This document shows, in pieces, positions 21,435-54,560 of a stretch of 64,000 bases of DNA. The notes beneath the pieces were generated by a model. It made no database searches, had not been told where the DNA came from, and saw only the letters and a list, made by a program, of their open reading frames with translations. The stretch is from Glaciecola sp. (GTDB taxonomy: Bacteria; Pseudomonadota; Alphaproteobacteria; Caulobacterales; Parvularculaceae): the NCBI GenBank assembly GCA_964219355.1, contig CAXPOZ010000003.1:219678-283677 (forward strand), given 5' to 3'. A program made the translations under genes and the position numbers. Every line of letters starts with the position of its first letter. Position 1 is the first letter of the stretch.

Positions 21435-21442
21435 GGCGGACG

Positions 21443-21470
21443 AAAAGGCCGCCTTAGCTGGCGGCCTTTT
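21443..21470. terminator. Bidirectional intrinsic terminator
   Basis: AAAAGGCCGCC-ttagct-GGCGGCCTTTT between convergent genes. Confidence 0.85.
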
Positions 21471-21909
21471 CCCTGATCCCCGCATCGCCCAACACCAGAC
21501 GGCGCAGGCACTGGCAGTGGCCAAGCTCTTCACCGATGACCTTGGTCAGGTGCTGGTCGATCGCCATGGACAGAATTTCCTGCTGTGAGCGGTCGGTTGC
21601 CGCCGCCACCAATCGCAAAAGGCGCTGCTGGCGCGTCGTCATCCTGACGGTCATACGCGGTTTGTCCGGCGCGGCATGCGCCTTGTGGAGCTTGTCCGAA
21701 CAGGAGGATGCGGGGACAGGCGTCACGACGACCGGCTCGCCATCCCGATCCCCCCGCCTCGAACGACGTTGAAGATCTAGATCAGCAATAGCGGGCTGCG
21801 CATTGCCTTTGCGTGCGAGAAGGCCGCCATGCAGGCTGGCGAAACCGTCCCTATGCGATGTTTTCATCTGTTTTTGCATGACGTTGATCCCACACTTTTC
21901 CAGTTTCAT
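21454..21909 (-). CDS. ParA partner with probable ribbon-helix-helix domain
   Basis: ATGA overlap with the parA stop; N-terminal ASLHGGLLARKGNAQPA; C-terminal RMTVRMTTRQQRLLRLVAAATDRSQQEILSMAIDQHL (strand-helix-helix). Confidence 0.65.
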   Translation of the reverse strand: MKLEKCGINVMQKQMKTSHRDGFASLHGGLLARKGNAQPAIADLDLQRRSRRGDRDGEPVVVTPVPASSCSDKLHKAHAAPDKPRMTVRMTTRQQRLLRLVAAATDRSQQEILSMAIDQHLTKVIGEELGHCQCLRRLVLGDAGIREKAAS

Positions 21910-22976
21910 TTCAGCGGACGCCGCCCGAAGATCGGCGCTCGCCTCCGGTCGGGCAGACCCAGCGGGGGGCCGGCATCCTGACTGCGGCGGTCAATCCCGT
22001 CCCAGATCGCGGCCCGGGGCATTTCCTCCTCTAGAAGCAACGGCTCCTCCCCTGCGCTGGCCGGTTCACGGCGCATGGCGGCGGTTTCGAGCGGGAAGAG
22101 CTCATGCAGCGGGATCGGCCCCTGCCGCGGTGTCGGGCGCTGCGGCGCGACGGCTTGAGGGGCAGGCGCAGGTGGAGGTGTCGGTCTGGGGCGGCGCGAT
22201 GGCGGGATCGGTGCCGGGCGGCTGGCAAGGCTCTCCGCTCGCTGAGGCGCCGGCGGAGCAGATGGTGCCGCAGTAATCGGGGTCAGCAATTCGACCGAAA
22301 AGCGTTCGCCCTGGGCCTCACGAGCGCCAGCAGTATCCCCTTTGATCCGACGCAGGCGCTCTTCGAGATAGGACCAGAGCGTTGCGACCTCTTTGGCCGA
22401 GCGCGCATTCGGATTGACCTCACCGACTGTGCGGCCGTCGATCATGCTGGCGGCGAAATCGACGCGGTTATGGATCGTCACCGGTGCGACCGTGCCGTGC
22501 TGGCTCAGGCTGACGGCCGTCTCGCTGGTGATCCGGGCGCGGGCGGTGGCGCAGTTCACGGCAAAGACGAGCGGCTTGCCGGCCTCCTCGACGATATCGA
22601 CCGTGGCGCCAACGGCGCGCAAATCGTGCGGGCTCGGACGGGTCGGCACGACGATCAGGTCACCCTGCTCGACAACTTCAGAAATCGCCGCCGTTGCAGC
22701 AGGCGGCGTGTCGATGACGATGAGCCTCAGCCCCGTCTCGCGCAGCTTGGCGATGTCCCGGCTCAGACGCGCAACGGTGGTCTCAACGAAGACCGGCATT
22801 TCGGCCTCCCTCGCATTCCACCATTTCGCAAGCGAGCCTTGCGGATCCGTATCGATAAGGGCGACTGGCCCTGCGCCCGCAGCCTGTGCGGCAACGGCGA
22901 TATGCCCGGAGAGCGTGGTCTTGCCCGAGCCGCCCTTCTGGGAGGCGAAGACCAGAACGGAACACTCATTCTGCAT
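21906..22976 (-). CDS. parA: Orphan ParA/ParF-type ATPase with Pro-rich C-terminal tail
   Basis: SQKGGSGKTT deviant Walker A, IDTDPQGS, VIDTPP, VPTRPSPHDL; about 140-aa low-complexity tail. Confidence 0.9.
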   Translation of the reverse strand: MQNECSVLVFASQKGGSGKTTLSGHIAVAAQAAGAGPVALIDTDPQGSLAKWWNAREAEMPVFVETTVARLSRDIAKLRETGLRLIVIDTPPAATAAISEVVEQGDLIVVPTRPSPHDLRAVGATVDIVEEAGKPLVFAVNCATARARITSETAVSLSQHGTVAPVTIHNRVDFAASMIDGRTVGEVNPNARSAKEVATLWSYLEERLRRIKGDTAGAREAQGERFSVELLTPITAAPSAPPAPQRAESLASRPAPIPPSRRPRPTPPPAPAPQAVAPQRPTPRQGPIPLHELFPLETAAMRREPASAGEEPLLLEEEMPRAAIWDGIDRRSQDAGPPLGLPDRRRAPIFGRRPLK

Positions 22977-23125
22977 GAGAGCTTTCCTCAGATGACTGAC
23001 CGAATAGAGGCTATCTTCCCGATGGCCCGTAACCCGTTCAGTGCAACACAGAGGTATTGCCGGCTCGTCGATACGCGCACGGATATTTGAGCCGAGTTTA
23101 TCGAAAACTCACGCTCGGTGATTCA

Positions 23126-24628
23126 TCATGAACCGACCAGAAAGGCTGCTGCGAGGCCCAGAAAGGCAAAGAATCCCACGACATCCGTCACCGTGGTAAC
23201 GAAAACAGCCGAGGAGACAGCTGGGTCCGCGCCGACACGCTGGAGCCCGAGCGGAATCAAAATTCCGGAAAGTCCCGCCGACAGCATGGTGATAATCATC
23301 GCCGCGGCAAGGACAAGGCCGAGGGTCATGCCCTCGCCTTCCGCGCCGCCGCCGATCGCCTGATACCAGATACCCGCGGCTACCCCGAGCAGGATGGCAA
23401 AGGCGACCCCATTGATCAGCGAGACTGTTGTCTCGCGGAAGACGACCCGCAAAGCGTTCGCGGCCGTCAGATCACGGGTGGCAAGGTTCCTGACCGCGAC
23501 GGTCAGTGTCTGCGTGCCCGCATTACCGCCCATCGAGGCAACAATCGGCATCAGGACGGCGAGCGCCACGACCTGCTGGATCGTCGCGTCAAACAGGCTG
23601 ATGACGAAACTTGCTAAAATGGCTGTGCCCAGATTGACGGCCAGCCAGGTGAAGCGCGAGCGCGCAATCTTTGGCACCGGCAGCGCAAGGACATTGTTCT
23701 CAGAACTCACGCCACCCAGGGCGAGCATGTCTTCGTCAGCCTCGGTGTGCAGAACCTCAACGATGTCATCCACCGTGACCATGCCGACCAGCCGGTCGCC
23801 TGAATCAACGACGGGCGCCGAGATGAGGTTATATTTCTCGAAGAGATAGGCGACCTCTTCCTGGTCCATGTCGACCGGCACCTGCACGAGATCTCGTTCG
23901 ACAAGGTCGATCAGTTTCGTCTCACGCGGAGCTTTGAGAAAGCGAGAGAGCGCAACGCCGCCGATGACCTTGAACGCCGGATCGACGACATAGACATCAT
24001 AGAAAAGATCGGGGAGCTTCTCTGCTGAGCGCAGCCGGTCGATGATCTGCCCCACCGTTGAGAAGGACGGCGCAGCGAACACCTCGCGCTGCATGAGACG
24101 GCCGGCAGTCTCTTCTTCGTATTCAAGCGCTGCTTCAATCGCGAGACGATCGGCGATGGGGACTTCGGCAAGAAGCTCAGCCCGCCCCTCCTCGTCCATG
24201 TCCTGGACAACGAAGGCTGCCTCGTCGGTATCAAGCTCAGCGATGTGCCCGGCGAGCTGTTCGGTCGGGATGGCCTCGAGCACGCTCTCGCGAACGTCCT
24301 CATCGAGCTCGGCCAGAATGTCGGCGTCGAAATCCGTACCGAGAAGCGTGACGAGTTTCGGCCGGGCCGCTTCTGACAATTGCTCGATCAGGTCGGCAAC
24401 GTCGGCAGCCTTGAGGTCGACGCAGGCAGCGAGCACATCCTCGCGGTCGCCATGCTCAACCGCTTCGCCCACTGACCGAATGAAGTCGGATGTCAGCGAT
24501 CCGCGCGCATCCAGCGGCGCATCGGGGGCACGCTCCTCCTCTTCCAGCTCGTCATCCCGTTCAGGCTCCGCCCCCTCAGGCGGGGTCTTCTCATTCTGAA
24601 CAGGGTCGAGCAGGGAGGATTGCGCCAT
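23126..24628 (-). CDS. mgtE: Magnesium transporter MgtE
   Basis: CBS pair (YEEETAGRLM), RFTWLAVNL, MGGNAGTQT, DPAVSS..FVTTVTDVVGFF. Confidence 0.96.
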   Translation of the reverse strand: MAQSSLLDPVQNEKTPPEGAEPERDDELEEEERAPDAPLDARGSLTSDFIRSVGEAVEHGDREDVLAACVDLKAADVADLIEQLSEAARPKLVTLLGTDFDADILAELDEDVRESVLEAIPTEQLAGHIAELDTDEAAFVVQDMDEEGRAELLAEVPIADRLAIEAALEYEEETAGRLMQREVFAAPSFSTVGQIIDRLRSAEKLPDLFYDVYVVDPAFKVIGGVALSRFLKAPRETKLIDLVERDLVQVPVDMDQEEVAYLFEKYNLISAPVVDSGDRLVGMVTVDDIVEVLHTEADEDMLALGGVSSENNVLALPVPKIARSRFTWLAVNLGTAILASFVISLFDATIQQVVALAVLMPIVASMGGNAGTQTLTVAVRNLATRDLTAANALRVVFRETTVSLINGVAFAILLGVAAGIWYQAIGGGAEGEGMTLGLVLAAAMIITMLSAGLSGILIPLGLQRVGADPAVSSAVFVTTVTDVVGFFAFLGLAAAFLVGS

Positions 24629-27492: not shown

Positions 27493-28227
27493 TTAGCCGT
27501 GTTTGGCGCCGAGAAATATATCCGCGGCCCTGATCCGCACAGTGGTTCCATCCGTGCCGAGCAGCAATGAGCCGTCCTCGTCAATCCCCTCGAACAGGCC
27601 ATCGGTCGTGCTGTCATGCTGGCGGACGATGATCGGCGCGCCAAGCCCCGCCGCGCGTTCAAGCCAGGCCTGCCGCACGGACGCGAACCCCTCTTCGCGG
27701 GCTCGTTTCTCCCAGACCTGCACCCGCTCATCCAGCATCTCACGGAATTCCGCCGGCATGGGCGGTGTCTCAAGATATCCAGCAAGCGTTGCCGCATTCT
27801 CCCCTTCCGGGGCGACCAGCAGGTTGACGCCGATGCCGATGACGATGGCTCGGCCCTTGGGGCCGGTCAGCAATTCACAAAGGATGCCTGCGACTTTCTG
27901 GCCATCAAGCAGAACATCATTGGGCCATTTGACTTGCGTCTTGCTGGCAGGAACGCCCGCCTGATCGATCGCTTCTGCGACGCAAAGAGCCGCGATGAAG
28001 GCAAAGAGCGGCGCGGTACGAAGCTGCTCTTCTTCAATCGGCAGGAGCAGCGAGCCCGCAAAATTGCCGGGATGGTGACGCCATGCGCGTCCGCGACGAC
28101 CAACCCCAGCGGATTGCCGGGCGGCCGTAAACCAGAGGGGTCCGGTCTCGCCGTCTTCCTCGAACGCGGACTTGGCATCGAGGCTGGTTGATGCCGTCTC
28201 GATCGCGTGGCGGACGGGCGTCGACAA
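27493..28227 (-). CDS. birA: Biotin--[acetyl-CoA-carboxylase] ligase
   Basis: QSAGVGRRGRAW, KWPNDVLLDGQKVAGIL, IGIGVNL; TTG start. Confidence 0.93.
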   Translation of the reverse strand: MSTPVRHAIETASTSLDAKSAFEEDGETGPLWFTAARQSAGVGRRGRAWRHHPGNFAGSLLLPIEEEQLRTAPLFAFIAALCVAEAIDQAGVPASKTQVKWPNDVLLDGQKVAGILCELLTGPKGRAIVIGIGVNLLVAPEGENAATLAGYLETPPMPAEFREMLDERVQVWEKRAREEGFASVRQAWLERAAGLGAPIIVRQHDSTTDGLFEGIDEDGSLLLGTDGTTVRIRAADIFLGAKHG

Positions 28228-28238
28228 CCTGCGCTGCC

Positions 28239-29675
28239 TCAGAACAGGGACGCAGCCGCAAGCGCGGCCCAGTCATAAAGCGGCCGGATCAGGAAAAGGA
28301 GCCCGACGGTGATCAGGAGCGCAGCGCCTGACGCCGTCATCGTGACAGCCATGCCCCGATTACTGACAAATTGTGGCGCCGGATCGTTGAACCAGATCGT
28401 CCGGATGACCGAGAGATAGTAGAAGGTCGAGATCACACTCGTCACGACACCGACGATGGTCAGGATATAAAGCCCGGCATCAACACCTGCGGAAAAGACC
28501 GCGAACTTGGCAAAGAAGCCTAGGAAGGGCGGGATCCCGGCCAGCGACAGGAAGAGCGCGGTAAAGGCAAGACCAAGGCCCGGACGGGTCTGCATCAGGC
28601 CGGAAAGATCGGAGATATTCTCCGCCATGCCCTCGGGCCGACGCATCGACAGGATACAGGCAAAAGTCCCGAGCGTCATGACAAGATAGATGCCGAGATA
28701 GACAACGACCCCTTGCGCCCCGGCCTGCGTTCCCGCCGCAAGCCCGATCAGCGCATAGCCGACATGACCAATCGAGGAGTAGGCCATCAGGCGTTTGATA
28801 TTGGTCTGCATAAGTGCCGAGAGCGAGCCGACGATCATCGACAGCGCTGCGATCAGCCAGACAACCGGCTGCCATTGATCAAGAATGGTCGGGAACGCCT
28901 CCAGCATCACGCGGACAAAAAGGAACATGCCTGCGACTTTCGGGGCGGCCGCGAAATAGGCCGTCACCGGCGTCGGAGCACCCTCATAAACGTCCGGGGT
29001 CCACATATGGAACGGCGCCCCCGATACCTTGAAGGCGAGCCCAGCCAACATGAAGACAAGGCCGAAGGAGATCGCAACCTGATGATCTGAATCGAGCGCG
29101 TGACGCGCGATCTCACCGAATTGCAGCGCACCCGTGAAGCCATAGATGAGAGACATGCCGTAGAGCAGCAGGCCCGACGACAATGCACCGAGCACGAAAT
29201 ATTTAAGGCCCGCTTCAGTCGAGCGACGTGAGCCACGGTTGAACGCAGCGAGGATATAAAGCGACAGCGACTGCAGCTCGATCCCCATATAAACAGCGAT
29301 CAGGTGTTGCGCGGAGACCATCAGCCCCATGCCAATGGTCGCAAGCAGCACAAGGATCGGATATTCGAACCGGCCGAGCTTTTCCTTGTCGAGGAAGAGG
29401 ACGGACATCAGCAGGGAGACGATCCCTGCTGAATAGATGAAGATCCGGCCGACGACGCTGAAAGCATCAGTGACGAAGGAGCCGCCAAACGCTACGCCTT
29501 CCGGCGGCATGCCGTTGAGCGCAATCAGAAGTGCGCCAGCAAGCGCGGCACAGGCCGCCAGTGTCATCTCCCGCAGGCGGCTGCCTTTGAACGAGACGCC
29601 AACGATCAGCAGCACCATGGAGACGATGGCGAGGAACAGCTCCGGTCCGAGCGCGAGAAGATCCTGACGGTCCAT
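28239..29675 (-). CDS. nuoN: NADH-quinone oxidoreductase subunit N
   Basis: STEAGLKYFVLG, FKVSGAPFHMWTPDVYEGAPTP, KRLMAYSSIGH. Confidence 0.97.
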   Translation of the reverse strand: MDRQDLLALGPELFLAIVSMVLLIVGVSFKGSRLREMTLAACAALAGALLIALNGMPPEGVAFGGSFVTDAFSVVGRIFIYSAGIVSLLMSVLFLDKEKLGRFEYPILVLLATIGMGLMVSAQHLIAVYMGIELQSLSLYILAAFNRGSRRSTEAGLKYFVLGALSSGLLLYGMSLIYGFTGALQFGEIARHALDSDHQVAISFGLVFMLAGLAFKVSGAPFHMWTPDVYEGAPTPVTAYFAAAPKVAGMFLFVRVMLEAFPTILDQWQPVVWLIAALSMIVGSLSALMQTNIKRLMAYSSIGHVGYALIGLAAGTQAGAQGVVVYLGIYLVMTLGTFACILSMRRPEGMAENISDLSGLMQTRPGLGLAFTALFLSLAGIPPFLGFFAKFAVFSAGVDAGLYILTIVGVVTSVISTFYYLSVIRTIWFNDPAPQFVSNRGMAVTMTASGAALLITVGLLFLIRPLYDWAALAAASLF

Positions 29676-31336
29676 TAGTGCGTATCTCCGTGAGACTCTT
29701 CTTCATGCATATCATCACTCATCCCGGCGGGAATAAGTGTCGAGGTATAGTTCTCGCCGCCTGCCTCGATGACCCGTGCCTGCACGAAATCCGTAGCCGG
29801 ACGGAAGACGGCAAGCGTCGGTGACGGGTGGAAGCCAAGATAGACGGACATCGCGCCGAGAATGGTGAGGAGCGCGAGTTCCCGCCGGTCAAGGTCCGGC
29901 ATCTCGGCGACTTTCTCATTCACGATCGTGCCGAAGACGACTTCGCGATAAAGCCGAAGGCCATAACCCGCCGACAGGATCATGCCGAGCGCAGCAAGAG
30001 CGGCCACCCAGGTGTTGATCTGGAACGCGCCGACCATAGTGAGGATCTCGCCCACAAACCCGGAAATCCCCGGCAGGCCGACATTCCCCATGGTAAAGAG
30101 CAGGAAGAAGAAGGCGAACCATTTCATCTTCTGGACCAGACCGCCATAGGCCGCGATCTCCCGCGTGTGCAGGCGGTCATAGACAATCCCGACACAGAGG
30201 AAGAGCGCACCGGAGATAAAGCCGTGGCTGAGCATCTGGAACATGGCGCCTTCCAGCCCCTGCTGGGTACCGGTGAAAAGGCCCATGGTCACAAAGCCCA
30301 TATGCGCAACAGAGGAATAAGCGATCAGCTTTTTCATGTCTTCCTGCGCGAAGGCGACGAGCGACGTGTAGACGATGGCGATGACGCTCAGCGTAAAGAC
30401 GAGCGGCTGGAAATAGACAGATGCATCGGGGAACATGGGCAGTGAGAACCGCGCAAAGCCGTAGCCGCCCATTTTCAGCAGGATCGCCGCCAGCACGATC
30501 GAGCCGCCGGTCGGCGCCTGAACGTGCGCATCGGGCAACCAGGTATGGACCGGCCACATCGGCATCTTGACGGCAAAGCTTGCAAAGAAGGCCAGCCACA
30601 GCCAGCGCTGTGCACCTTCCGGGAACGCATATTCCTGCAACGCCACGATGTCTGTCGTGCCCGTCGCCTGATACATCCAGATCAGAGCGATCAGGAGCAA
30701 GAGCGAGCCGAGCAGCGTGTAGAGGAAGAATTTGAAAGCCGCATAGATCCGGTTCGGGATCACCCGGCCGAACAGCACCCTCTCCCCCTTCGATCCCCAG
30801 ACGCCGATGATCAGGAACATCGGGATCAGCGAGGCTTCGAAGAAGACATAGAAAAGCATCAGGTCGAGCGCGCTGAAGACGCCGATGATCAGTGTCTCGA
30901 GCACGAGGAAGGCGATCATATATTCCGCGATCCGTGTCTTGATCGATTTCCACCCGGCGAGAATGCAGACCGGCATGATGAAGGTGGTCAGCAGAATGAA
31001 GAGGATCGAGAGCCCGTCGACGCCCATCTTGTATTTGATGCCTAAGGCCGCGCAGGCTTCATCAACGACGCCAGTCGCGCAACCGCCGAACCATGGAGAT
31101 TCCTCAACGAACTGGAAGCCGCTCGCCGTCTGGTCATACTGGAAATAGATGTAGACGGAGAAAACGAAGGTGAAGAGCGTGGTCGCCAGCGCCACCCATT
31201 TGGAGGCCCTCGCTGCGCCTTCGCGCTCGTCTTCCCGCCCGCTCCACTGACGCAGCAGGATGAAGACCACGCCGACAAGCGGCAGGAAGGTCAGAATGGA
31301 GAGAAGCGGAAGCTCGGTGAATTGCTGCTCGATCAT
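29675..31336 (-). CDS. nuoM: NADH-quinone oxidoreductase subunit M
   Basis: [48 protein letters not shown]. Confidence 0.97.
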
Positions 31337-33531
31337 GACGCACCCCGCAGCAGGACAAAGAACAGAATAAGGGTGAGACCGGCCAGCATGACGAAGGCGT
31401 AGGTGTAGACGTATCCCGTCTGCACGCCGACGAGGCGCTTGGCCCCCGCGGAGAGAAGCCCGGAAATCCCGTTCGGCCCTGCCCCATCAATCGTACGCTC
31501 ATCGCCACCTTTCCAGAGCAGGCGGGCGAGTTTCTCCGCCGGTCGCAGAAAGACGAGACGATAAAGATCGTCAATATACCAACGGTTCTTGAGGAACTCA
31601 TAGAGAAGCCCGCCCGGCCGCAGGAGGCCCGGCCGCAACGGATCATCCGTCAGGCGGTAGTGGAAGAGAGCGCCCAAGAAACCGATCAGCATGGCAACAA
31701 AAGGCGCAAGGAAGACCCAGGTCGGATAATCATGCCCGCCGCCATGACCACCCTCTTCAGCCATCTCATCAGCCGGATGATCGAGCGTTGCATGGGCGTC
31801 TTGGGCAGCATCATGCGCATCGGCGGCGCTAATGGTTGCTGCGATTTCGTCAGCTGAGCCCTCGTGTTCGCCGGCATGCGCCGTATCGGCGTGCATAGCT
31901 TCTTCGGCCCCGTGACCTGCCTCCGCATCGCCATGATGCGCCTCGGCGATGACCACACTGCCCTGCCAGAAATCGGCCTGACCGCCCCCGACAAAGGGTT
32001 TGTAGAAGACCATACCGGCAATCACGGCGCCGAGCGCCAGCGGCATCAGTGGCAGGAGCATGGTGTTGGGCACATCATGCGGGTGCTTGCGCACTTCTTC
32101 TGGTGCCCGCCATTTGCCATCGAAGGTCAGGAAGACGAGACGCCAGGAATAGAACGCCGTCATGACGGCTGCGAGCAGACCGCAGATGAAGGCGTAGGTC
32201 GCAAATGCTTTGCCTTCCGTACTCGCCCCATAGGCAGCTTCGATGATGTAGTCCTTGGAAACAAAGCCCGCAAAACCGAAGGGGGCCCCAAAGGCATAGA
32301 ACATCGGTATGCCGACGCCCGTAATGGCCAACGTGCCCGCCAGCATCATCACGAAGGTGACCGGCATCTGCGATCTGAGGCCGCCCATTTTGGGCATTTC
32401 CTGTTCGTGATGGGAGAAGTGGATGACCGCGCCGGCGCCAAGGAACAAAAGCGCCTTGAAGAAAGCGTGGGTCGTCAGGTGGAACATCGCTTGCGCATAT
32501 CCGCCGACGCCAGCGGCAAAGAACATGTAGCCGAGCTGGGACGCCGTCGAATAGGCGATGACCCGCTTGATGTCGGTCTGAACAAGACCGACCGTGGCGG
32601 CAAAAACGGCTGTCGTAGCGCCGATGAAGGTGACGACACCGGAGGCGAACGGCGCCTCGGCAAATAGCGGTGACATCCGGCAGACGAGGAAGACCCCTGC
32701 CGTCACCATGGTTGCTGCGTGGATCAGCGCGGAAACAGGCGTCGGGCCCTCCATCGCATCCGGCAGCCAGGTGTGCAGGATAAACTGCGCCGATTTGCCC
32801 ATCGCGCCGATGAAGAGAAGGACGCCGAGGAGTTCAAGCACCGGGAATGTGCCATTGAGGAAATGAAGCGATGCGCCATTGATGGCGACCGGGCCATCCG
32901 TCCACATCGGATTGGCGACCCCGGCCTCGATGGCGGCGAAGATGCCATCAAAGCTGACCGTCCCGAAGGTCACAAAACAGCCCATCAGGCCGAGCGCGAG
33001 GCCGACATCGCCGACCCGGTTCATCACGAACGCCTTGATCGCCGCATCATTGGCAGACTTTTTGTGGTGCCAGAAACCGATGAGAAGATAAGAGGCCAGC
33101 CCCACCCCTTCCCAGCCAAAGAAAAGCTGGACGAGGTCATTGGCCGTCACCAGCACCAGCATGGCGAAGGTGAAGAGCGAGAGATAGGCAAAGAAGCGCG
33201 GCCGCGAGGGATCCTCATGCATATAGCCGATCGAATAGGTGTGCACGAGCGCCGAGACGCTGGTGACGACGATCAGCATGACAGAAGTCAGCGTATCGAG
33301 GCGCATCGACCAGACCGAGCTGAATGAGCCGGATTCGATCCATGTAAAGAGGATCACCGGATCCTTCGCCCCGCCGAACCCGACAGAGATGAAGGTGATC
33401 CAGGCCAGAACGCAGGCGACCCAGAGCAGAAGCGTGGTGAGGATTTCCGCAGCGCGCGGCCCCGCCAGCATGGCTGCCGGCTTGGCCAGGATGGCGCCGA
33501 TCAGCGGCAGAAGGACAATCAGGGCTTCCAT
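31333..33531 (-). CDS. nuoL: NADH-quinone oxidoreductase subunit L
   Basis: [60 protein letters not shown]. Confidence 0.97.
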
Positions 33532-33536
33532 CAGCG

Positions 33537-33842
33537 TCAGTTCTTCATCGTGTTGGCGGTTTCAACGGAGATGTCGCCACGCTTGCGGAAGAAGGCGACG
33601 AGGATGGCAAGACCGATCGCCGCTTCGGCAGCGGCAACCGTCAGGATCATGAAGGCAAAGACCTGCCCTCTGATGTCATCGAGATACATCGAGAAGGCGA
33701 CGAAATTGATGTTCACGGCAAGGAGCATGAGCTCAATCGACATCAGGATGATGATGACGTTTTTCCGGTTGAGAAAAATGCCTGCCACACCGATGGCGAA
33801 CAGCATGCCGCCGACGAGAAGGTAATGTTCAAGTGCGATCAT
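33537..33842 (-). CDS. nuoK: NADH-quinone oxidoreductase subunit K
   Basis: [26 protein letters not shown]...[12 protein letters not shown]. Confidence 0.97.
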
Positions 33843-33849
33843 GACTGTC

Positions 33850-34455
33850 TCAGATCCCCTTTCCGGTCGGCACCGAGACGACTTCCACACCCTCTTCGCG
33901 CTTGCGCCCGACCTGCGCGCCAACATCCTGCGTCTTGATCCCGCGGCGTTCGCGGAATGTGAGGAGAATGGCGCCGATCATGGCGACGAGAAGGACGAGC
34001 CCCGCGATCTGGAAGAAGTGGACATATTCCGTATAGAGCACCATGCCGAGCTGCTCGGCATTGTTCGGGCCGCCATCACTTGCCGCCCGGGCAATGCCAT
34101 CCTCAGCCGAGCCGCCCCATGAGAGGACGATGAAGCCGATCTCAACGATCAGGGCGACGGCTACCACGATCCCGATGGGCAGATATTTCGCGTATCCTGC
34201 GCGCAGCTCGGCGAAATCGACATCGAGCATCATCACGACAAAGAGGAAGAGGACCGCGACGGCGCCGACATAGACGACGACCAGAAGGAAGGCGAGATAT
34301 TCAGCCCCGATCAGGACGAACAGGCCGGCCGTCGAGATGAAGGCCATGATGAGGCAGAGCACGGAGTGCACAGGGTTTCGGGCGAAGATCACGCCCAAGC
34401 CCCAAATGACCGTAGCCACCGCGAACACCGTGAAGGCGAATTGCGCAAAACCCAT
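33850..34455 (-). CDS. nuoJ: NADH-quinone oxidoreductase subunit J
   Basis: [38 protein letters not shown]; start ATG 34455. Confidence 0.96.
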
Positions 34456-51819: not shown

Positions 51820-52346
51820 TCGGCGCTCTTATACGTACCGTTCGCCGCGCGGAGCCGAGTGTCGCAGCGTATGTGTTGCGCGTCTTACCGATTATCATCA
51901 TCCCGGCCCTGATCATATCCGGGCTTCTCGCCTACATCGTCAGCGCGCTCGGCGTGGATGCAGGTTATGATGATATCCTATCAGAGGAAATTCCGGGCCT
52001 CTCTCCTTTAATGATGACGATCTTCACAGCGGTTTCCGTCGTCATCCTCGCGCCGGTTATTGAAACGCTGATGATGGCGGCTGTGTTCTGGGGCCTTCGC
52101 AAGATGAAGCTTCCCTATTGGGGGCTCGTCGTCGGACAAGTCGCGTTCTGGATTGCGCTCCATTCTCTTCAAGTACCCATCTGGGGCATTGGCATCGCCT
52201 GGGCGTTCTTCATCTTCTCAATTGCCTATCTGGCATGGGATGAAAAAGGCGGCATGGGGCAAGCGTTTGGTGTTGTTACTCTCCTTCATGCGCTCAATAA
52301 TCTCTTCTTCTTTGGACTGACCCTGTTGCCGGAGATGGCAACATGA
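51816..52346 (+). CDS. CPBP (Abi/CAAX)-like intramembrane protease homologue
   Basis: APVIETL (one Glu only), WIALH, LHALNN; ATGA overlaps on both sides. Confidence 0.65.
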   Translation: MIGALIRTVRRAEPSVAAYVLRVLPIIIIPALIISGLLAYIVSALGVDAGYDDILSEEIPGLSPLMMTIFTAVSVVILAPVIETLMMAAVFWGLRKMKLPYWGLVVGQVAFWIALHSLQVPIWGIGIAWAFFIFSIAYLAWDEKGGMGQAFGVVTLLHALNNLFFFGLTLLPEMAT

Positions 52347-52945
52347 ACCTGATGATTTTGCTGATTGTGATGGGGCTGATCTCCCTGCTGCCGCTTGTAG
52401 GCGCGACAGGTGTATTGCGCAGACCCATCCATAATTTTGTCAAAATCCTTGAATGGATCGTCAAGGCGGCCTTCTTCATCTCTGCCGTATGCGGCGCATG
52501 TGTCGCGCTGGCCCAGCTTTCTGCCGTGATTACCCGCAACCTTTTCGGGGTGAACTTTATCTGGCTGCAGGAGAGCGCAATCTACTTCTTCGGCCTGATG
52601 TTCCTCCTCGCCGGCGGGGCGATCCTCCTGATGGATGCGCATGTCAGGGTCGATGTCTTTTATGCCAAATGGTCCGAACGCAGACAGCGCCTCGTCAATA
52701 TTCTCGGGCTCTATCTCTTTGTCATCCCAGTCGGCTTTCTGATCCTCTGGGCTTCCGGCCCTTACGTCGCCGCAAGCTGGGCGACCTATGAAGGTTCAAA
52801 TGATCCGAGCGGCATTCAGGGTGTCTTCCTCCTGAAATCACTCGTGCCCGCCTTCGGCAGCCTGCTGATCATGGCCGCGACCGTGGCGATCGAACGCCAC
52901 CTCAACCCCGCCTTCCATGGCGAATATCATCCGGGTGAGGTGTGA
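52343..52945 (+). CDS. dctQ: TRAP small permease
   Basis: WLQES, HVRVDVFY, EGSNDPSG. Confidence 0.9.
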   Translation: MNLMILLIVMGLISLLPLVGATGVLRRPIHNFVKILEWIVKAAFFISAVCGACVALAQLSAVITRNLFGVNFIWLQESAIYFFGLMFLLAGGAILLMDAHVRVDVFYAKWSERRQRLVNILGLYLFVIPVGFLILWASGPYVAASWATYEGSNDPSGIQGVFLLKSLVPAFGSLLIMAATVAIERHLNPAFHGEYHPGEV

Positions 52946-52946
52946 G

Positions 52947-54560
52947 ATGGTGGACAATCTGATCCTCTGTTTCTGCGCCTGCGCGAACTGGCTCGATATC
53001 GCCATGGTGATCACGCTCTGCGTGCTCCTGCTCGCAGGATTTCCGGCCGCTTTTACTCTCGCTGGGGTCGCGCTCCTTTATGGCTTGCTCGGCCTGGCGG
53101 TCGGCGCCTTCGATCCGGCCTTCATCGCCGAGCCCTTCCCGATCCGCATCTTCGGTATCGTGAATAATCAGGTGCTGCTGGCGCTGCCGATGTTCATCCT
53201 GATGGGCGTCATACTTGAGCGCTCGAAAATCGCCGAAGAATTGCTCGACACAATGGCAAAGCTCTTCGGCGCGATGCGCGGCGGGCTCGGAATTTCCGTC
53301 ATGCTGGTCGGCGCGCTGCTCGCCGCCTCCACCGGCATTGTCGGCGCGACCGTCGTCACCATGGGGCTTCTCTCTCTGCCAACCATGCTCAAGCGAGGAT
53401 ATGATCCGGGTCTCGCCAGCGGTACGATTGCCGCTGCCGGAACGTTGGGCCAGATCATTCCGCCCTCGATCGTTCTCATCCTGCTTGGTGATGTCATCTC
53501 CAACGCCTATCAGGAAAGCCAGCTCGCGCAGGGGATTTTCGCGCCGCGCGCCGTGTCGGTCGGGGATTTGTTCGCGGGCGCACTGATCCCCGGCCTGCTG
53601 CTGGTCGTCATCTATCTACTTTATATCGGCGGTGTGGCGCTCTTCCGCGGCAGCAAAGCCCCGGCCGTCCCCGCAAATGAGCATATCGTCTTGAGCGAGA
53701 TCGGCCCGAAACTGCTCGGTACGCTGATCCCGCCGCTGCTCCTGATCATCGCCGTTCTCGGCTCGATCCTTGCCGGTAAGGCAACCGCCACCGAAGCCGC
53801 TTCCATCGGCGCCATCGGCGCGCTCCTGATTGCGGGCAGCCGCCGGGACATGGCGCAGGGGTTCGCGCGTTTGTTATCCATGGCGGGCATCCTCGCCATC
53901 GTCGTGCTGGTCATCCTCAATGAGACAATCGACCTCCGGCTTGGTCGTGAGGTGATCAGCGGGATCGAGCAGACCGGCATCGTGCTCGCCTTCATCGCCT
54001 GCGGCGTACTGGCGGCAGGCATCCTTTGCGCCGGGCTGTCTCTCCTCAAACGCTCCGTCCTCTGGCCGGTCCTGACCAAGACGGCGGAAGTCAACGGCAT
54101 GGTCTTCACCATCCTGATCGGGGCCGCGCTTTTCAGCCTCGTCTTCCGGGGCCTTGGCGGCGATGACACGATTGCCGCCGCACTCAGCCAGACCCCTGGC
54201 GGGGTCGTCGGCGCGATGATCGTCGTTATGCTGGTCCTGTTCGTACTCGGATTTTTCCTCGACTTCATCGAGATCACGCTAGTCGCGATCCCGCTGGTCG
54301 CGCCTGCGCTTCTGACGATGGGGCTCGATCCGATCTGGCTCGGCGTCATGCTGGCGGTGAATCTGCAGACTAGCTTCCTGACCCCGCCCTTCGGCTTTGC
54401 GCTGTTCTATTTACGCGGGGTCGCACCGCCGGAAGTCCGTACGATGCAGATCTACAAGGGCGCCCTGCCCTTTGTTCTCATCCAGATCCTGATGCTGGGT
54501 ATTCTGGCACTGTTCCCGCAGCTCGCGACCGCTTTGCCGCATGCGATCTACGGCAATTGA
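52947..54560 (+). CDS. dctM: TRAP large permease
   Basis: LALPMFILMG, GTLGQIIPPSI, NLQTSFLTPPFGFALFYL. Confidence 0.95.
   Translation: MVDNLILCFCACANWLDIAMVITLCVLLLAGFPAAFTLAGVALLYGLLGLAVGAFDPAFIAEPFPIRIFGIVNNQVLLALPMFILMGVILERSKIAEELLDTMAKLFGAMRGGLGISVMLVGALLAASTGIVGATVVTMGLLSLPTMLKRGYDPGLASGTIAAAGTLGQIIPPSIVLILLGDVISNAYQESQLAQGIFAPRAVSVGDLFAGALIPGLLLVVIYLLYIGGVALFRGSKAPAVPANEHIVLSEIGPKLLGTLIPPLLLIIAVLGSILAGKATATEAASIGAIGALLIAGSRRDMAQGFARLLSMAGILAIVVLVILNETIDLRLGREVISGIEQTGIVLAFIACGVLAAGILCAGLSLLKRSVLWPVLTKTAEVNGMVFTILIGAALFSLVFRGLGGDDTIAAALSQTPGGVVGAMIVVMLVLFVLGFFLDFIEITLVAIPLVAPALLTMGLDPIWLGVMLAVNLQTSFLTPPFGFALFYLRGVAPPEVRTMQIYKGALPFVLIQILMLGILALFPQLATALPHAIYGN

What the first reader, a model, noticed from the sequence alone, without database searches (positions are those of the whole stretch)
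21454..22976. Chromosomal ParF/ParG-like pair: short ParA plus coupled RHH partner
Seen: ParA with no N-terminal HTH, ATGA-coupled to a 151-aa protein with an N-terminal basic peptide (SLHGGLLARKGNAQPA), a flexible linker and a predicted RHH; no parB, rep or plasmid genes nearby. Established: type Ib systems (TP228 ParF/ParG) use an RHH adaptor whose N-terminal Arg stimulates the ATPase, and orphan ParAs position protein cargo (McdAB, ParC/PpfA). Inference: an uncharacterised positioning or segregation system whose cargo or DNA site is unknown.
Basis: partly seen in the sequence, partly recalled or inferred. Interest (0 to 1): 0.65.

Follow-up and report, generated by a model that had tools for sequence, protein, structure and literature searches.

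The report
Chromosomal plasmid-type ParA–RHH positioning pair
A two-gene operon on a Parvularcula chromosome is a domesticated copy of a plasmid partition cassette (a ParA ATPase plus a ribbon-helix-helix adaptor); the ATPase has gained a long tail ending in a conserved arginine-rich motif, and what the pair positions is still unknown.

Summary
Window 21906-22976(-) encodes a ParA with a deviant Walker A and no N-terminal HTH. It is tightly coupled to 21454-21909(-), whose product has an invariant N-terminal peptide (LHxGLLARKGxAxP), a disordered linker and a C-terminal RHH.

Both genes are homologous to a plasmid type Ib partition cassette:
- The ParA core is 50-62% identical to ParAs on 313 plasmids.
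- The partner profile matches the small plasmid RHH partners at hhalign probability 98.4%.
- The closest solved structure is TP228 ParF.

The pair is conserved. In 78 of 80 related chromosomal loci the peptide-bearing partner lies directly downstream. It occurs in about 13% of sampled alphaproteobacterial genomes, and at least 593 species carry the ParA subfamily.

The chromosomal copies differ from the plasmid ones in four ways:
- The ParA has a ~140-aa disordered tail ending in W-x-G-x-DRRxxDxGPPxGxxDRR…FGRR.
- The partner has a C-terminal CxC.
- No iterated centromere-like repeats lie upstream.
- No rep, parB or integrase gene is nearby.

Two relatives carry a c-di-GMP-I-GGC riboswitch upstream of parA; the window does not.

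Verdict: a new variant of a known kind. It most likely works as a ParF/ParG-like ATPase–adaptor machine. Cargo and regulation are unknown. No publication on it was found.

The parts
21906..22976 (-). parA-like gene, 356 aa (stop codon included)
   Evidence: ORF. Pfam CbiA, MipZ, AAA_31 and VirC1. NCBIfam ParA_partition 160.6 bits against a cut-off of 180. PDB best hit ParF 4dzz, E 6.9e-16. 98% identical to a P. marina 'ParA family protein'.
22332..22976 (-). ParA NTPase core, aa 1-215, with deviant Walker A QKGGSGKTT at aa 13-21 (nt 22914-22940)
   Evidence: AF2 pLDDT 80-95 over aa 1-215. 55-64% identical across alphaproteobacterial orders. 50-62% identical to plasmid ParAs.
22005..22331 (-). 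Pro/Ala-rich disordered linker of ParA, aa ~216-324
   Evidence: pLDDT below 50 for aa 228-254 and 273-323. Length and sequence vary among homologues. Absent from all 313 plasmid homologues, none of which covers 80% or more of the query.
21909..22004 (-). Conserved C-terminal motif of ParA, aa 325-356: WDGIDRRSQDAGPPLGLPDRRRAPIFGRRPLK
   Evidence: R331, P338, R344, R345, F350 and G351 are invariant; W325, R330, G336 and R353 are 90% or more conserved. 115 of 120 best homologues carry the DRR..D.GPP..DRR unit and 113 of 120 end in FG[RK]R. The motif is unique in this genome.
21454..21909 (-). Partner gene, longest ORF 151 aa; probable start at M11 (ATG 21879), giving 141 aa
   Evidence: ORF. 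Homologues start at the M11 equivalent. The family has 927 cluster representatives at E<=1e-3. No curated family reaches threshold.
21790..21843 (-). N-terminal ParA-interaction-type peptide FASLHGGLLARKGNAQPA (aa 23-40 of the 151-aa ORF)
   Evidence: Invariant. The same peptide occurs in plasmid partners. 144 of 154 family representatives have [RK]KG.A.P in the first 60 residues. It is unique in the genome.
21523..21660 (-). Ribbon-helix-helix domain, aa 84-129: strand RMTVRMT, helix 92-105, helix 109-129
   Evidence: AF2 pLDDT 92-96. Foldseek hits are RHH proteins. hhalign to plasmid partners 98.4%, and those hit Pfam RHH_10 at 1e-7. Weak direct Pfam hit to Antitox_RHH, E 0.009.
21508..21516 (-). 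C132-x-C134 motif after the RHH
   Evidence: Invariant in 44 aligned members. Present in 141 of 154 representatives. Absent from plasmid partners and from Sphingomonadales partners.
21442..21471 (.). Perfect 12-bp inverted repeat (GAAAAGGCCGCC / GGCGGCCTTTTC) spanning the partner stop codon; a likely bidirectional terminator between the pair and convergent phoH
   Evidence: repeat I7. The simple terminator scan did not list it because the T run is only 4 long.
23044..23107 (-). Conserved upstream blocks (TTTTCGATAAACTCGGCTCAAAT and GGCAATACCTCTGTG), 70-130 nt before the parA start; a candidate promoter or operator
   Evidence: Conserved among Parvularcula-clade loci, including loci in different genomic contexts. 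Each block is unique in the genome at up to 3 mismatches. No consensus RNA structure and no Rfam match.

Best explanation
The pair is a chromosomally fixed descendant of a plasmid type Ib partition cassette, and it most likely still works as a ParA-adaptor machine.

Inferred mechanism:
1. ATP-bound ParA dimerises through its deviant Walker A lysine and sits on the nucleoid.
2. The partner dimerises through its C-terminal RHH and binds one or more specific DNA sites, probably including its own promoter region.
3. The partner's two flexible N-terminal LHxGLLARKGxAxP peptides dock on the ParA dimer and trigger ATP hydrolysis.
4. ParA is released locally, which creates the gradient that moves or spaces whatever the partner is bound to.

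Shown here: homology of both genes to the plasmid cassette, the RHH fold, the invariant peptide, conservation of the pair, and the chromosomal setting.

Inferred only: DNA binding, ATPase stimulation, gradient formation and the cargo.

The chromosome-specific additions are the ~140-aa disordered ParA tail ending in W.G.DRR..D.GPP.G..DRR...FGRR and the partner CxC. They are read as regulatory or anchoring modules acquired after domestication.
For: - ParA core: closest solved relatives are ParF (4dzz) and the 214-aa ParA chain of 5u1g. It is 50-62% identical to ParAs on 313 plasmids, which lie next to RepA, RepC, a replication initiator or a resolvase.
- Plasmid partners of 83-114 aa share the N-terminal peptide and the RHH. 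Profile-profile match is 98.4%, E 4.9e-15, over both modules.
- RHH fold.
- The pair is conserved: 78/80 chromosomal loci; same mgtE-parA-partner-phoH synteny at 62-77% ParA identity; partner found in 51/401 class-wide genomes and 38/308 genera.
- ParA clades in the tree follow taxonomy.
- The tail and CxC are under strong constraint.
- The genome keeps a canonical parAB and a MipZ-like gene elsewhere, so this pair is an additional system.
- Published precedent: N-terminal peptides with a central Arg or Lys activate ParA (PMC12462528). A ~150-aa RHH adaptor positions a replicon together with a ParA (HpaAB, PMC13722703).
Against: - No iterated repeats of 8 nt or more lie upstream of parA, whereas plasmid relatives have 3-4 GCGTGCTTT iterons. 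The conserved upstream blocks occur only once in the genome. A centromere has therefore not been identified.
- The pair is patchy within its own genus (5 of 22 other same-genus genomes), so it is dispensable for many close relatives.
- No biochemical or localisation data exist, and no paper on this family was found.
- The ParA tree does not resolve chromosomal copies as one clade apart from plasmid copies.
Confidence: 0.62

Rival explanations
1. The pair positions a non-DNA cargo or a cell-envelope or division structure. The RHH would serve mainly as an autorepressor or nucleoid anchor. The ParA tail (…P-x-FGRR at the extreme C-terminus) would tether the ATPase to a cellular partner.
For: - In Sphingomonadales the pair is a fixed neighbour of two SPOR-domain (septal peptidoglycan-binding) proteins, in 53-57 of 63 loci.
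- Its promoter there carries a CtrA-like TTAAC-N6-TTAG box.
- The chromosomal copies lack iterons.
- The tail is specific to the chromosomal copies.
- ParA/MinD relatives such as McdA, PpfA, MipZ and PomZ position proteins (my own knowledge).
Against: - The window has no SPOR genes next to the pair.
- Synteny within one order may simply be inherited.
- The RHH strand keeps basic and polar residues at alternating positions (R-x-T-x-R), as in sequence-specific RHH proteins.
- No candidate cargo gene co-occurs across lineages.
Confidence: 0.2
2. The pair is a decaying remnant of an integrated plasmid or island and has no cellular role.
For: - Both genes have close plasmid relatives.
- Distribution is patchy in the genus.
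- The pair sits at a synteny break relative to G011.
Against: - Both ORFs are intact.
- Motifs are invariant across orders.
- The same locus is kept at 62-77% ParA identity.
- G+C is like the flanks.
- There is no integrase within ~190 kb and no second ParB.
- Flanking genes are housekeeping (mgtE, RNase J, coaX, birA, phoH).
- New conserved modules (tail, CxC) have been gained rather than lost.
Confidence: 0.06
3. The pair is chiefly a transcriptional regulator. The RHH protein would repress target promoters with ParA as an ATP-dependent co-repressor, as type Ia/Ib Par proteins do at their own operators, and nothing would be positioned.
For: - RHH proteins are typically repressors.
- The only conserved cis blocks lie in the pair's own promoter region and occur once in the genome.
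Against: - The ATPase-activating type of peptide is invariant, which points to a Par-type hydrolysis cycle rather than simple co-repression.
- The large conserved ParA tail has no role in this model.
Confidence: 0.07

Closest known systems
ParF/ParG of plasmid TP228 (type Ib partition)
   Same: A small Walker-type ParA without an N-terminal HTH. ParF is the best solved-structure hit. The partner is a dimeric RHH protein with a flexible N-terminal tail carrying the ATPase-activating basic residue (literature: PMC12462528 refs 65 and 66; PMC5389482). It is a two-gene operon.
   Different: Only distant in sequence (61 bits). This pair is chromosomal. The ParA has a 140-aa tail with an Arg-rich motif. 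The partner is twice as long and has a CxC. No parH-like iterons were found.
Uncharacterised plasmid 'ParA family partition ATPase' cassettes with a small RHH partner (e.g. Xanthomonas pXCV19, Comamonas pZM22-2, E. coli p2018-05-2CC_3, Pseudomonas pMRCP1333)
   Same: True homologues of both genes. The ParA core is 55-62% identical. The partner has the same LxxxLvAxKGxAxP peptide, a Pro/Ala linker and an RHH.
   Different: The plasmid ParAs are 207-228 aa with no tail. Their partners are 83-114 aa with no CxC. Three of the four upstream regions examined have GCGTGCTTT iterons (pXCV19, the E. coli and the Pseudomonas plasmids; not pZM22-2), and the cassettes sit next to rep or resolvase genes. 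The window's ParA scores 160.6 bits, below the 180-bit NF041546 cut-off.
HpaA/HpaB of Haloferax volcanii pHV3 (PMC13722703)
   Same: A ParA plus a ~150-aa, largely disordered RHH adaptor whose N-terminus is needed for ParA-dependent equipositioning. The system acts on a large replicon rather than a small plasmid.
   Different: It is archaeal, and its authors report no sequence similarity of HpaB to bacterial proteins. HpaB binds six defined sites; no sites are known here.
Orphan ParA/MinD positioning systems (McdAB, PpfA/ParC, MipZ, PomXYZ)
   Same: A chromosomal ParA-family ATPase that is additional to ParABS, with a dedicated adaptor carrying an N-terminal activating peptide (my own knowledge).
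   Different: Their adaptors are not RHH proteins, and their cargo genes are usually adjacent. No cargo genes are linked here.
Arg-rich c-di-GMP-binding peptide of Caulobacter CleD (PMC7382256)
   Same: A short, disordered C-terminal segment with an aromatic residue, DRR and [RK]RxxD elements and a G-P.
   Different: The CleD motif is DRR-x11-[RK]RxxD. The ParA tail reads W-x4-RRxxD-x8-DRR-x5-FGRR, so the order and spacing differ. Binding has not been tested.

Membership tests
Type Ib partition system (ParF/ParG-like) | Small ParA with a deviant Walker A and no N-terminal DNA-binding (HTH) extension | tested here: met
   KGGSGKT at aa 14-20. The first strand begins at aa 6. ParF is the top PDB hit.
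Type Ib partition system (ParF/ParG-like) | The partner is a ribbon-helix-helix protein | tested here: met
   AF2 model plus Foldseek. hhalign 98.4% to plasmid partners, which hit Pfam RHH_10.
Type Ib partition system (ParF/ParG-like) | Flexible N-terminal tail of the partner with a basic residue that stimulates the ATPase | not testable with these tools
   The sequence feature is present and invariant (R33-K34-G35). Stimulation needs an ATPase assay.
Type Ib partition system (ParF/ParG-like) | Centromere or operator made of iterated short repeats adjacent to the operon | tested here: not met
   No direct or inverted repeats of 8 nt or more in window 22970-23135. Three of four plasmid relatives examined have 3-4 GCGTGCTTT copies.
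Type Ib partition system (ParF/ParG-like) | Carried by, and stabilising, a plasmid or other low-copy replicon | tested here: not met
   The flanks are housekeeping chromosomal genes. In the 97-98% identical relative the pair lies on a 2.93-Mb contig. No rep, parB or integrase gene is nearby.
NCBIfam NF041546 ParA_partition (equivalog) | Score at or above the curated cut-off of 180 bits | tested here: not met
   160.6 bits over aa 8-202; 162.5 bits in the genome search.
VirC1/VirC2 (T-DNA transfer accessory ParA plus RHH) | VirC1 equivalog score and a T4SS or relaxase context | tested here: not met
   Pfam VirC1 scores 30.5 bits, just above its cut-off of 24 and lower than CbiA and MipZ. NCBIfam VirC1 scores 28.5 bits against 313. 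No transfer genes are in the flanks.
Cle-type Arg-rich c-di-GMP-binding peptide | DRR-x11-[RK]RxxD linear motif (PMC7382256) | tested here: not met
   The tail reads DRRSQD-x8-DRRR-x5-FGRR. The elements are present but in a different order and spacing. Ligand binding is not testable here.
c-di-GMP-I riboswitch-controlled operon | A GEMM-I-type aptamer in the 5' leader | tested here: not met
   No Rfam match at E<=1 in window 22800-23400. RF03167 is present upstream of parA homologues in L066 and L088 only.
McdAB carboxysome positioning | An McdB-type adaptor and linked carboxysome genes | not tested
   The partner is an RHH protein. No carboxysome genes were seen in the flanks that were read. 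No dedicated search was made.

The most novel reading that the evidence does not exclude
The family is a c-di-GMP-gated ParA system. The disordered ParA tail (W.G.DRR..D.GPP.G..DRR...FGRR, sometimes in 2-3 tandem copies) would fold around c-di-GMP as the CleD Arg-rich peptide does, switching ParA localisation or activity. In lineages without this control, the same input would be supplied by a c-di-GMP-I-type riboswitch in the leader. This would link a second messenger directly to a ParA-type spatial organiser of an as yet unknown chromosomal or cellular cargo. The partner's CxC might add a redox or metal input.
Probability: 0.15. Interest if true: 0.8.

Novelty: new variant of a known kind. 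Interest (0 to 1): 0.55.

Why it matters
ParA/MinD ATPases organise chromosomes, plasmids, carboxysomes, chemoreceptor arrays and division sites. Each new adaptor has revealed a new cargo or a new regulatory logic.

This is a plasmid-type (type Ib) cassette retained on the chromosomes of hundreds of alphaproteobacterial species, alongside canonical ParABS and MipZ. It has two strongly conserved additions with no described function: an Arg-rich tail on the ATPase and a CxC on the adaptor. In some relatives it also has a c-di-GMP-type riboswitch.

If the cargo is a chromosomal locus, this would be a second, regulated segregation or positioning system in these bacteria. If the cargo is a protein or an envelope structure, it would show an RHH centromere-binding protein being re-used as a cargo adaptor.

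The invariant peptide, the tail motif and the CxC give precise mutational targets.

Tried and rejected
- **Toxin-antitoxin reading.** The weak Pfam and NCBIfam hits of the partner to antitoxin RHH families (E 0.009 and 0.066) reflect the shared fold only. The upstream gene is a ParA, not a toxin.
- **VirC1/VirC2.** Rejected on scores and context.
It holds only in the nearest lineage and not elsewhere.
- **Centromere search.** No repeats were found upstream or downstream. The conserved upstream blocks have no other copy in the genome.
- **Upstream blocks as an RNA element.** No Rfam hit and no consensus structure. Single-sequence folds hint at pairing of CCUC with the GAGG Shine-Dalgarno, but the z-scores range from -2.7 to +0.5 and are not consistent.
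- **Partner against the PDB by sequence.** Nothing found.
- **Partner against plasmids by tblastn.** No match. Homology was recovered only by inspecting the neighbours of plasmid ParAs and by profile-profile comparison.
- **The search for related loci with the diverse partner alignment.** Failed for lack of a conserved 7-10-column stretch, so the ParA alignment was used instead.
- **ParA phylogeny.** The basal branching is unresolved, so a single origin of the chromosomal copies can be neither shown nor excluded.
- **Literature.** Six full-text searches found no paper on this family.
Full report
**What is there**

On the minus strand, window 21906-22976 encodes a 356-aa ParA-family protein and 21454-21909 encodes a 151-aa protein. 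The second ORF's ATG overlaps the ParA TGA, giving ATGA. The nearest database entries are a 'ParA family protein' (98% identical) and a 'hypothetical protein DX908_02330' (97%) of Parvularcula marina. The window is therefore from a Parvularcula chromosome.

In that relative the pair lies on a 2.93-Mb contig. The flanks are housekeeping genes:
- On one side: mgtE, DUF1467, RNase J, coaX and birA.
- On the other side: convergent phoH, a cytochrome b561-YceI fusion, a hydrolase and an Rrf2/cysteine desulfurase pair.

A perfect 12-bp inverted repeat spans the partner's stop codon, between the pair and phoH. G+C matches the surroundings. The genome's only ParB_N gene belongs to the canonical parAB locus on another contig. 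A MipZ-like gene is also elsewhere. The nearest tyrosine recombinase is about 190 kb away.

**The ParA**

Residues 1-215 form a confidently predicted ParA fold with the deviant Walker A QKGGSGKTT and no N-terminal extension. Family matches are:
- Pfam CbiA, MipZ, AAA_31 and VirC1.
- NCBIfam ParA_partition at 160.6 bits, below its 180-bit cut-off.
- TP228 ParF (E 6.9e-16) and the ParA chain of 5u1g, the best solved relatives.

After the core comes a ~110-aa Pro/Ala-rich segment predicted to be disordered. It is followed by a conserved 32-aa end, WDGIDRRSQDAGPPLGLPDRRRAPIFGRRPLK. Across 18 diverse homologues R331, P338, R344, R345, F350 and G351 are invariant. Of the 120 best homologues, 115 carry the DRR..D.GPP..DRR unit, 10 of them in two or three copies, and 113 end in FG[RK]R. 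No other protein in this genome has the motif.

**The partner**

Close homologues begin at the equivalent of M11, so the real start may be ATG 21879. Three features define the family.
- **N-terminal peptide.** It reads FASLHxGLLARKGxAxPA, with R-K-G-x-A-x-P invariant in 44 diverse members.
- **C-terminal domain.** It has the pattern R-x-T-x-R-L … RRLRLAAA … SQQxILSxALDxYL.
- **CxC.** An invariant CxC follows the domain.

AlphaFold2 gives pLDDT below 50 for most of residues 1-78 and 85-96 for aa ~90-140, with helices at 92-105, 109-129 and 133-143. Of 23 Foldseek hits in the PDB, nearly all are ribbon-helix-helix proteins (AtaR, KacA, CopG, Arc, TacA, AmrZ, ORF56, CdbA, PrpA). Their target-normalised TM-scores are 0.6-0.79 and rmsd is 1.1-2.4 A over ~40-50 residues. 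E-values are poor because the domain is short and the rest of the query is disordered. An exhaustive profile search finds 927 cluster representatives at E<=1e-3. Of the 154 retrieved, 144 have the N-terminal peptide and 141 have the CxC.

**The link to plasmids**

tblastn of the ParA against 72,556 plasmids finds 313 records. Identity is 50-62% over the core only, and none covers the tail. In the records inspected, the ParA is 207-228 aa and sits beside a replication initiator, RepA, RepC or a resolvase. Those records are Comamonas pZM22-2, Xanthomonas pXCV19, an E. coli 10-kb plasmid, Pseudomonas pMRCP1333, and Defluviicoccus, Acidiphilium and Lichenicola plasmids.

Each plasmid ParA is followed by an 83-114-aa ORF of the form 'M..K.A..LS..LvA.KG.A.P – Pro/Ala linker – RHH'. 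The chromosomal and plasmid partner profiles align over both modules at hhalign probability 98.4%, E 4.9e-15. Three of six plasmid partners hit Pfam RHH_10 at up to 1e-7.

The window's pair is therefore homologous, gene for gene, to a plasmid type Ib partition cassette. Three of the four plasmid upstream regions examined carry 3-4 direct and inverted copies of GCGTGCTTT, the expected operator/centromere iterons. The window's 150-nt upstream region has no repeat of 8 nt or more.

**Conservation and distribution**

In 78 of the 80 best loci an ORF with [RK]KG.A.P near its N-terminus lies immediately downstream. Two architectures exist.
- **Long-tail form.** Parvularcula, Maricaulaceae, Hyphomonadaceae and Hyphomicrobiales have the long-tailed ParA plus a CxC partner. 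All 14 of the 80 loci that carry the tail motif have this pairing.
- **Short form.** Sphingomonadales have a ~240-aa ParA ending in GGFGRR and a ~200-aa partner with a DDLGWNDMG motif and no CxC.

In Sphingomonadales the pair is syntenic with a divergent Sel1-SPOR gene and a downstream TPR-SPOR lipoprotein. Its promoter there carries a TTAAC-N6-TTAG box.

Class-wide, the partner is found in 51 of 401 sampled genomes and 38 of 308 genera. Apart from the window's own genome, it is found in 5 of 40 relatives, all but one in the same genus.

Within the Parvularcula lineage, three metagenomic relatives with 62-77% identical ParA keep the mgtE–parA–partner–phoH arrangement. Other carriers have the pair in unrelated contexts. 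A relative with an 87% identical phoH lacks the pair.

In a ParA tree the chromosomal copies form taxon-coherent clades. The deep branching with the plasmid copies is unresolved.

**Cis elements**

Two upstream blocks are conserved among Parvularcula-clade loci, even where the genomic context differs. They are TTTTCGATAAACTCGGCTCAAAT and GGCAATACCTCTGTG, 70-130 nt before the start. Each occurs once in the genome. They give no Rfam hit and no consensus RNA structure. I read them as promoter or operator DNA.

In two relatives, a Hyphomicrobiales MAG (L066) and an unclassified alphaproteobacterium (L088), an RF03167 c-di-GMP-I-GGC aptamer lies directly upstream of parA at 63.9 and 63.5 bits against a gathering score of 59. 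The other 27 relatives scanned and the window have none. The ligand specificity of that aptamer variant is, to my knowledge, not established.

**Mechanism**

The best-supported model is a ParF/ParG-type cycle.
1. The ATP-bound ParA dimer sits on the nucleoid.
2. The RHH dimer binds DNA.
3. The two N-terminal peptides activate hydrolysis.
4. The resulting ParA depletion zone positions the adaptor-bound cargo.

The literature shows that such N-terminal peptides with a central Arg or Lys are sufficient for ParA binding and activation (PMC12462528, with the ParG and TP228 work cited there). It also shows that a ~150-aa disordered RHH adaptor equipositions a large replicon with its ParA (HpaAB, PMC13722703). 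In this family the residue invariant across plasmid and chromosomal partners is the Lys of KG.

The cargo is not explained. No centromere was found. A non-DNA or division-related cargo remains possible, prompted by the SPOR neighbours in Sphingomonadales.

The tail resembles the CleD c-di-GMP-binding peptide in composition, with an aromatic residue, DRR, [RK]RxxD and G-P. It does not match the published DRR-x11-[RK]RxxD arrangement (PMC7382256). Taken with the riboswitch in two relatives, this gives a testable but unproven c-di-GMP link.

**Earlier notes from this scan**

These were treated as leads only. They had flagged the same family in other genomes, including the SPOR-linked Sphingomonadales form and a riboswitch-preceded copy. 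I re-derived the plasmid homology, the SPOR synteny and the riboswitch association independently here.

**Verdict**

This is a new, unstudied chromosomal variant of a known kind of system. It is of moderate to high interest to the ParA/MinD field. Function and cargo remain open.

Noticed in passing
L066:4895-4989 and L088:4911-4990: An Rfam RF03167 c-di-GMP-I-GGC riboswitch aptamer (63.9 and 63.5 bits; gathering score 59) lies directly upstream of the ParA homologue in two relatives. It is absent from the window and from 27 other relatives scanned.
   Followed up: partly
Sphingomonadales loci L080-L145 (e.g. L119:2282-3652, L091:3723-4814): The Sphingomonadales form of the pair (short ParA ending GGFGRR; partner with DDLGWNDMG and no CxC) is flanked by a divergent Sel1-SPOR gene and a downstream TPR-SPOR lipoprotein in 53-57 of 63 loci. 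A conserved TTAAC-N6-TTAG (CtrA-like) box lies about 90 nt upstream of parA.
   Followed up: partly
L064:7215-8167: A Xanthobacteraceae locus has an extra chimeric ORF between parA and the true partner. It fuses the partner's N-terminal peptide to a copy of the ParA tail, and looks like a local duplication or recombination product.
   Followed up: no
P0022, P0024 (ParA homologues, 404-405 aa): The W.G.ERR..D.GPP.G..ERR unit of the ParA tail occurs in two or three tandem copies. 10 of the 120 best homologues have two or more copies.
   Followed up: partly
L072, ORF starting 12 nt after parA (703 aa): The partner-position ORF keeps the N-terminal peptide but continues into about nine tandem ~45-aa repeats (…VSFVETPPPVQVEEAA…). 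It has no recognisable RHH or CxC. Its ParA also lacks the canonical tail motif.
   Followed up: no
window 21442-21471: A perfect 12-bp inverted repeat (GAAAAGGCCGCC/GGCGGCCTTTTC) has the partner's stop codon in its loop. It is a likely bidirectional terminator shared with convergent phoH.
   Followed up: partly
window 23044-23107: Two sequence blocks upstream of parA are conserved across Parvularcula-clade loci, even in different genomic contexts, and are unique in the genome. In the window and one relative, the CCUC of the second block can pair with the GAGG Shine-Dalgarno, but the folding statistics are not significant.
   Followed up: partly
window 28001-34000 and 52001-54000: Strong AT skew (+0.20 to +0.26, and -0.24) stands out against near-zero values elsewhere in the window. 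It was not examined.
   Followed up: no
L064:4687-5675: In a Xanthobacteraceae relative the pair lies just downstream of a small DnaA_C-domain gene and a DUF6456 gene. From memory, these resemble GTA-regulator (GafYZ-like) genes. This was not checked.
   Followed up: no
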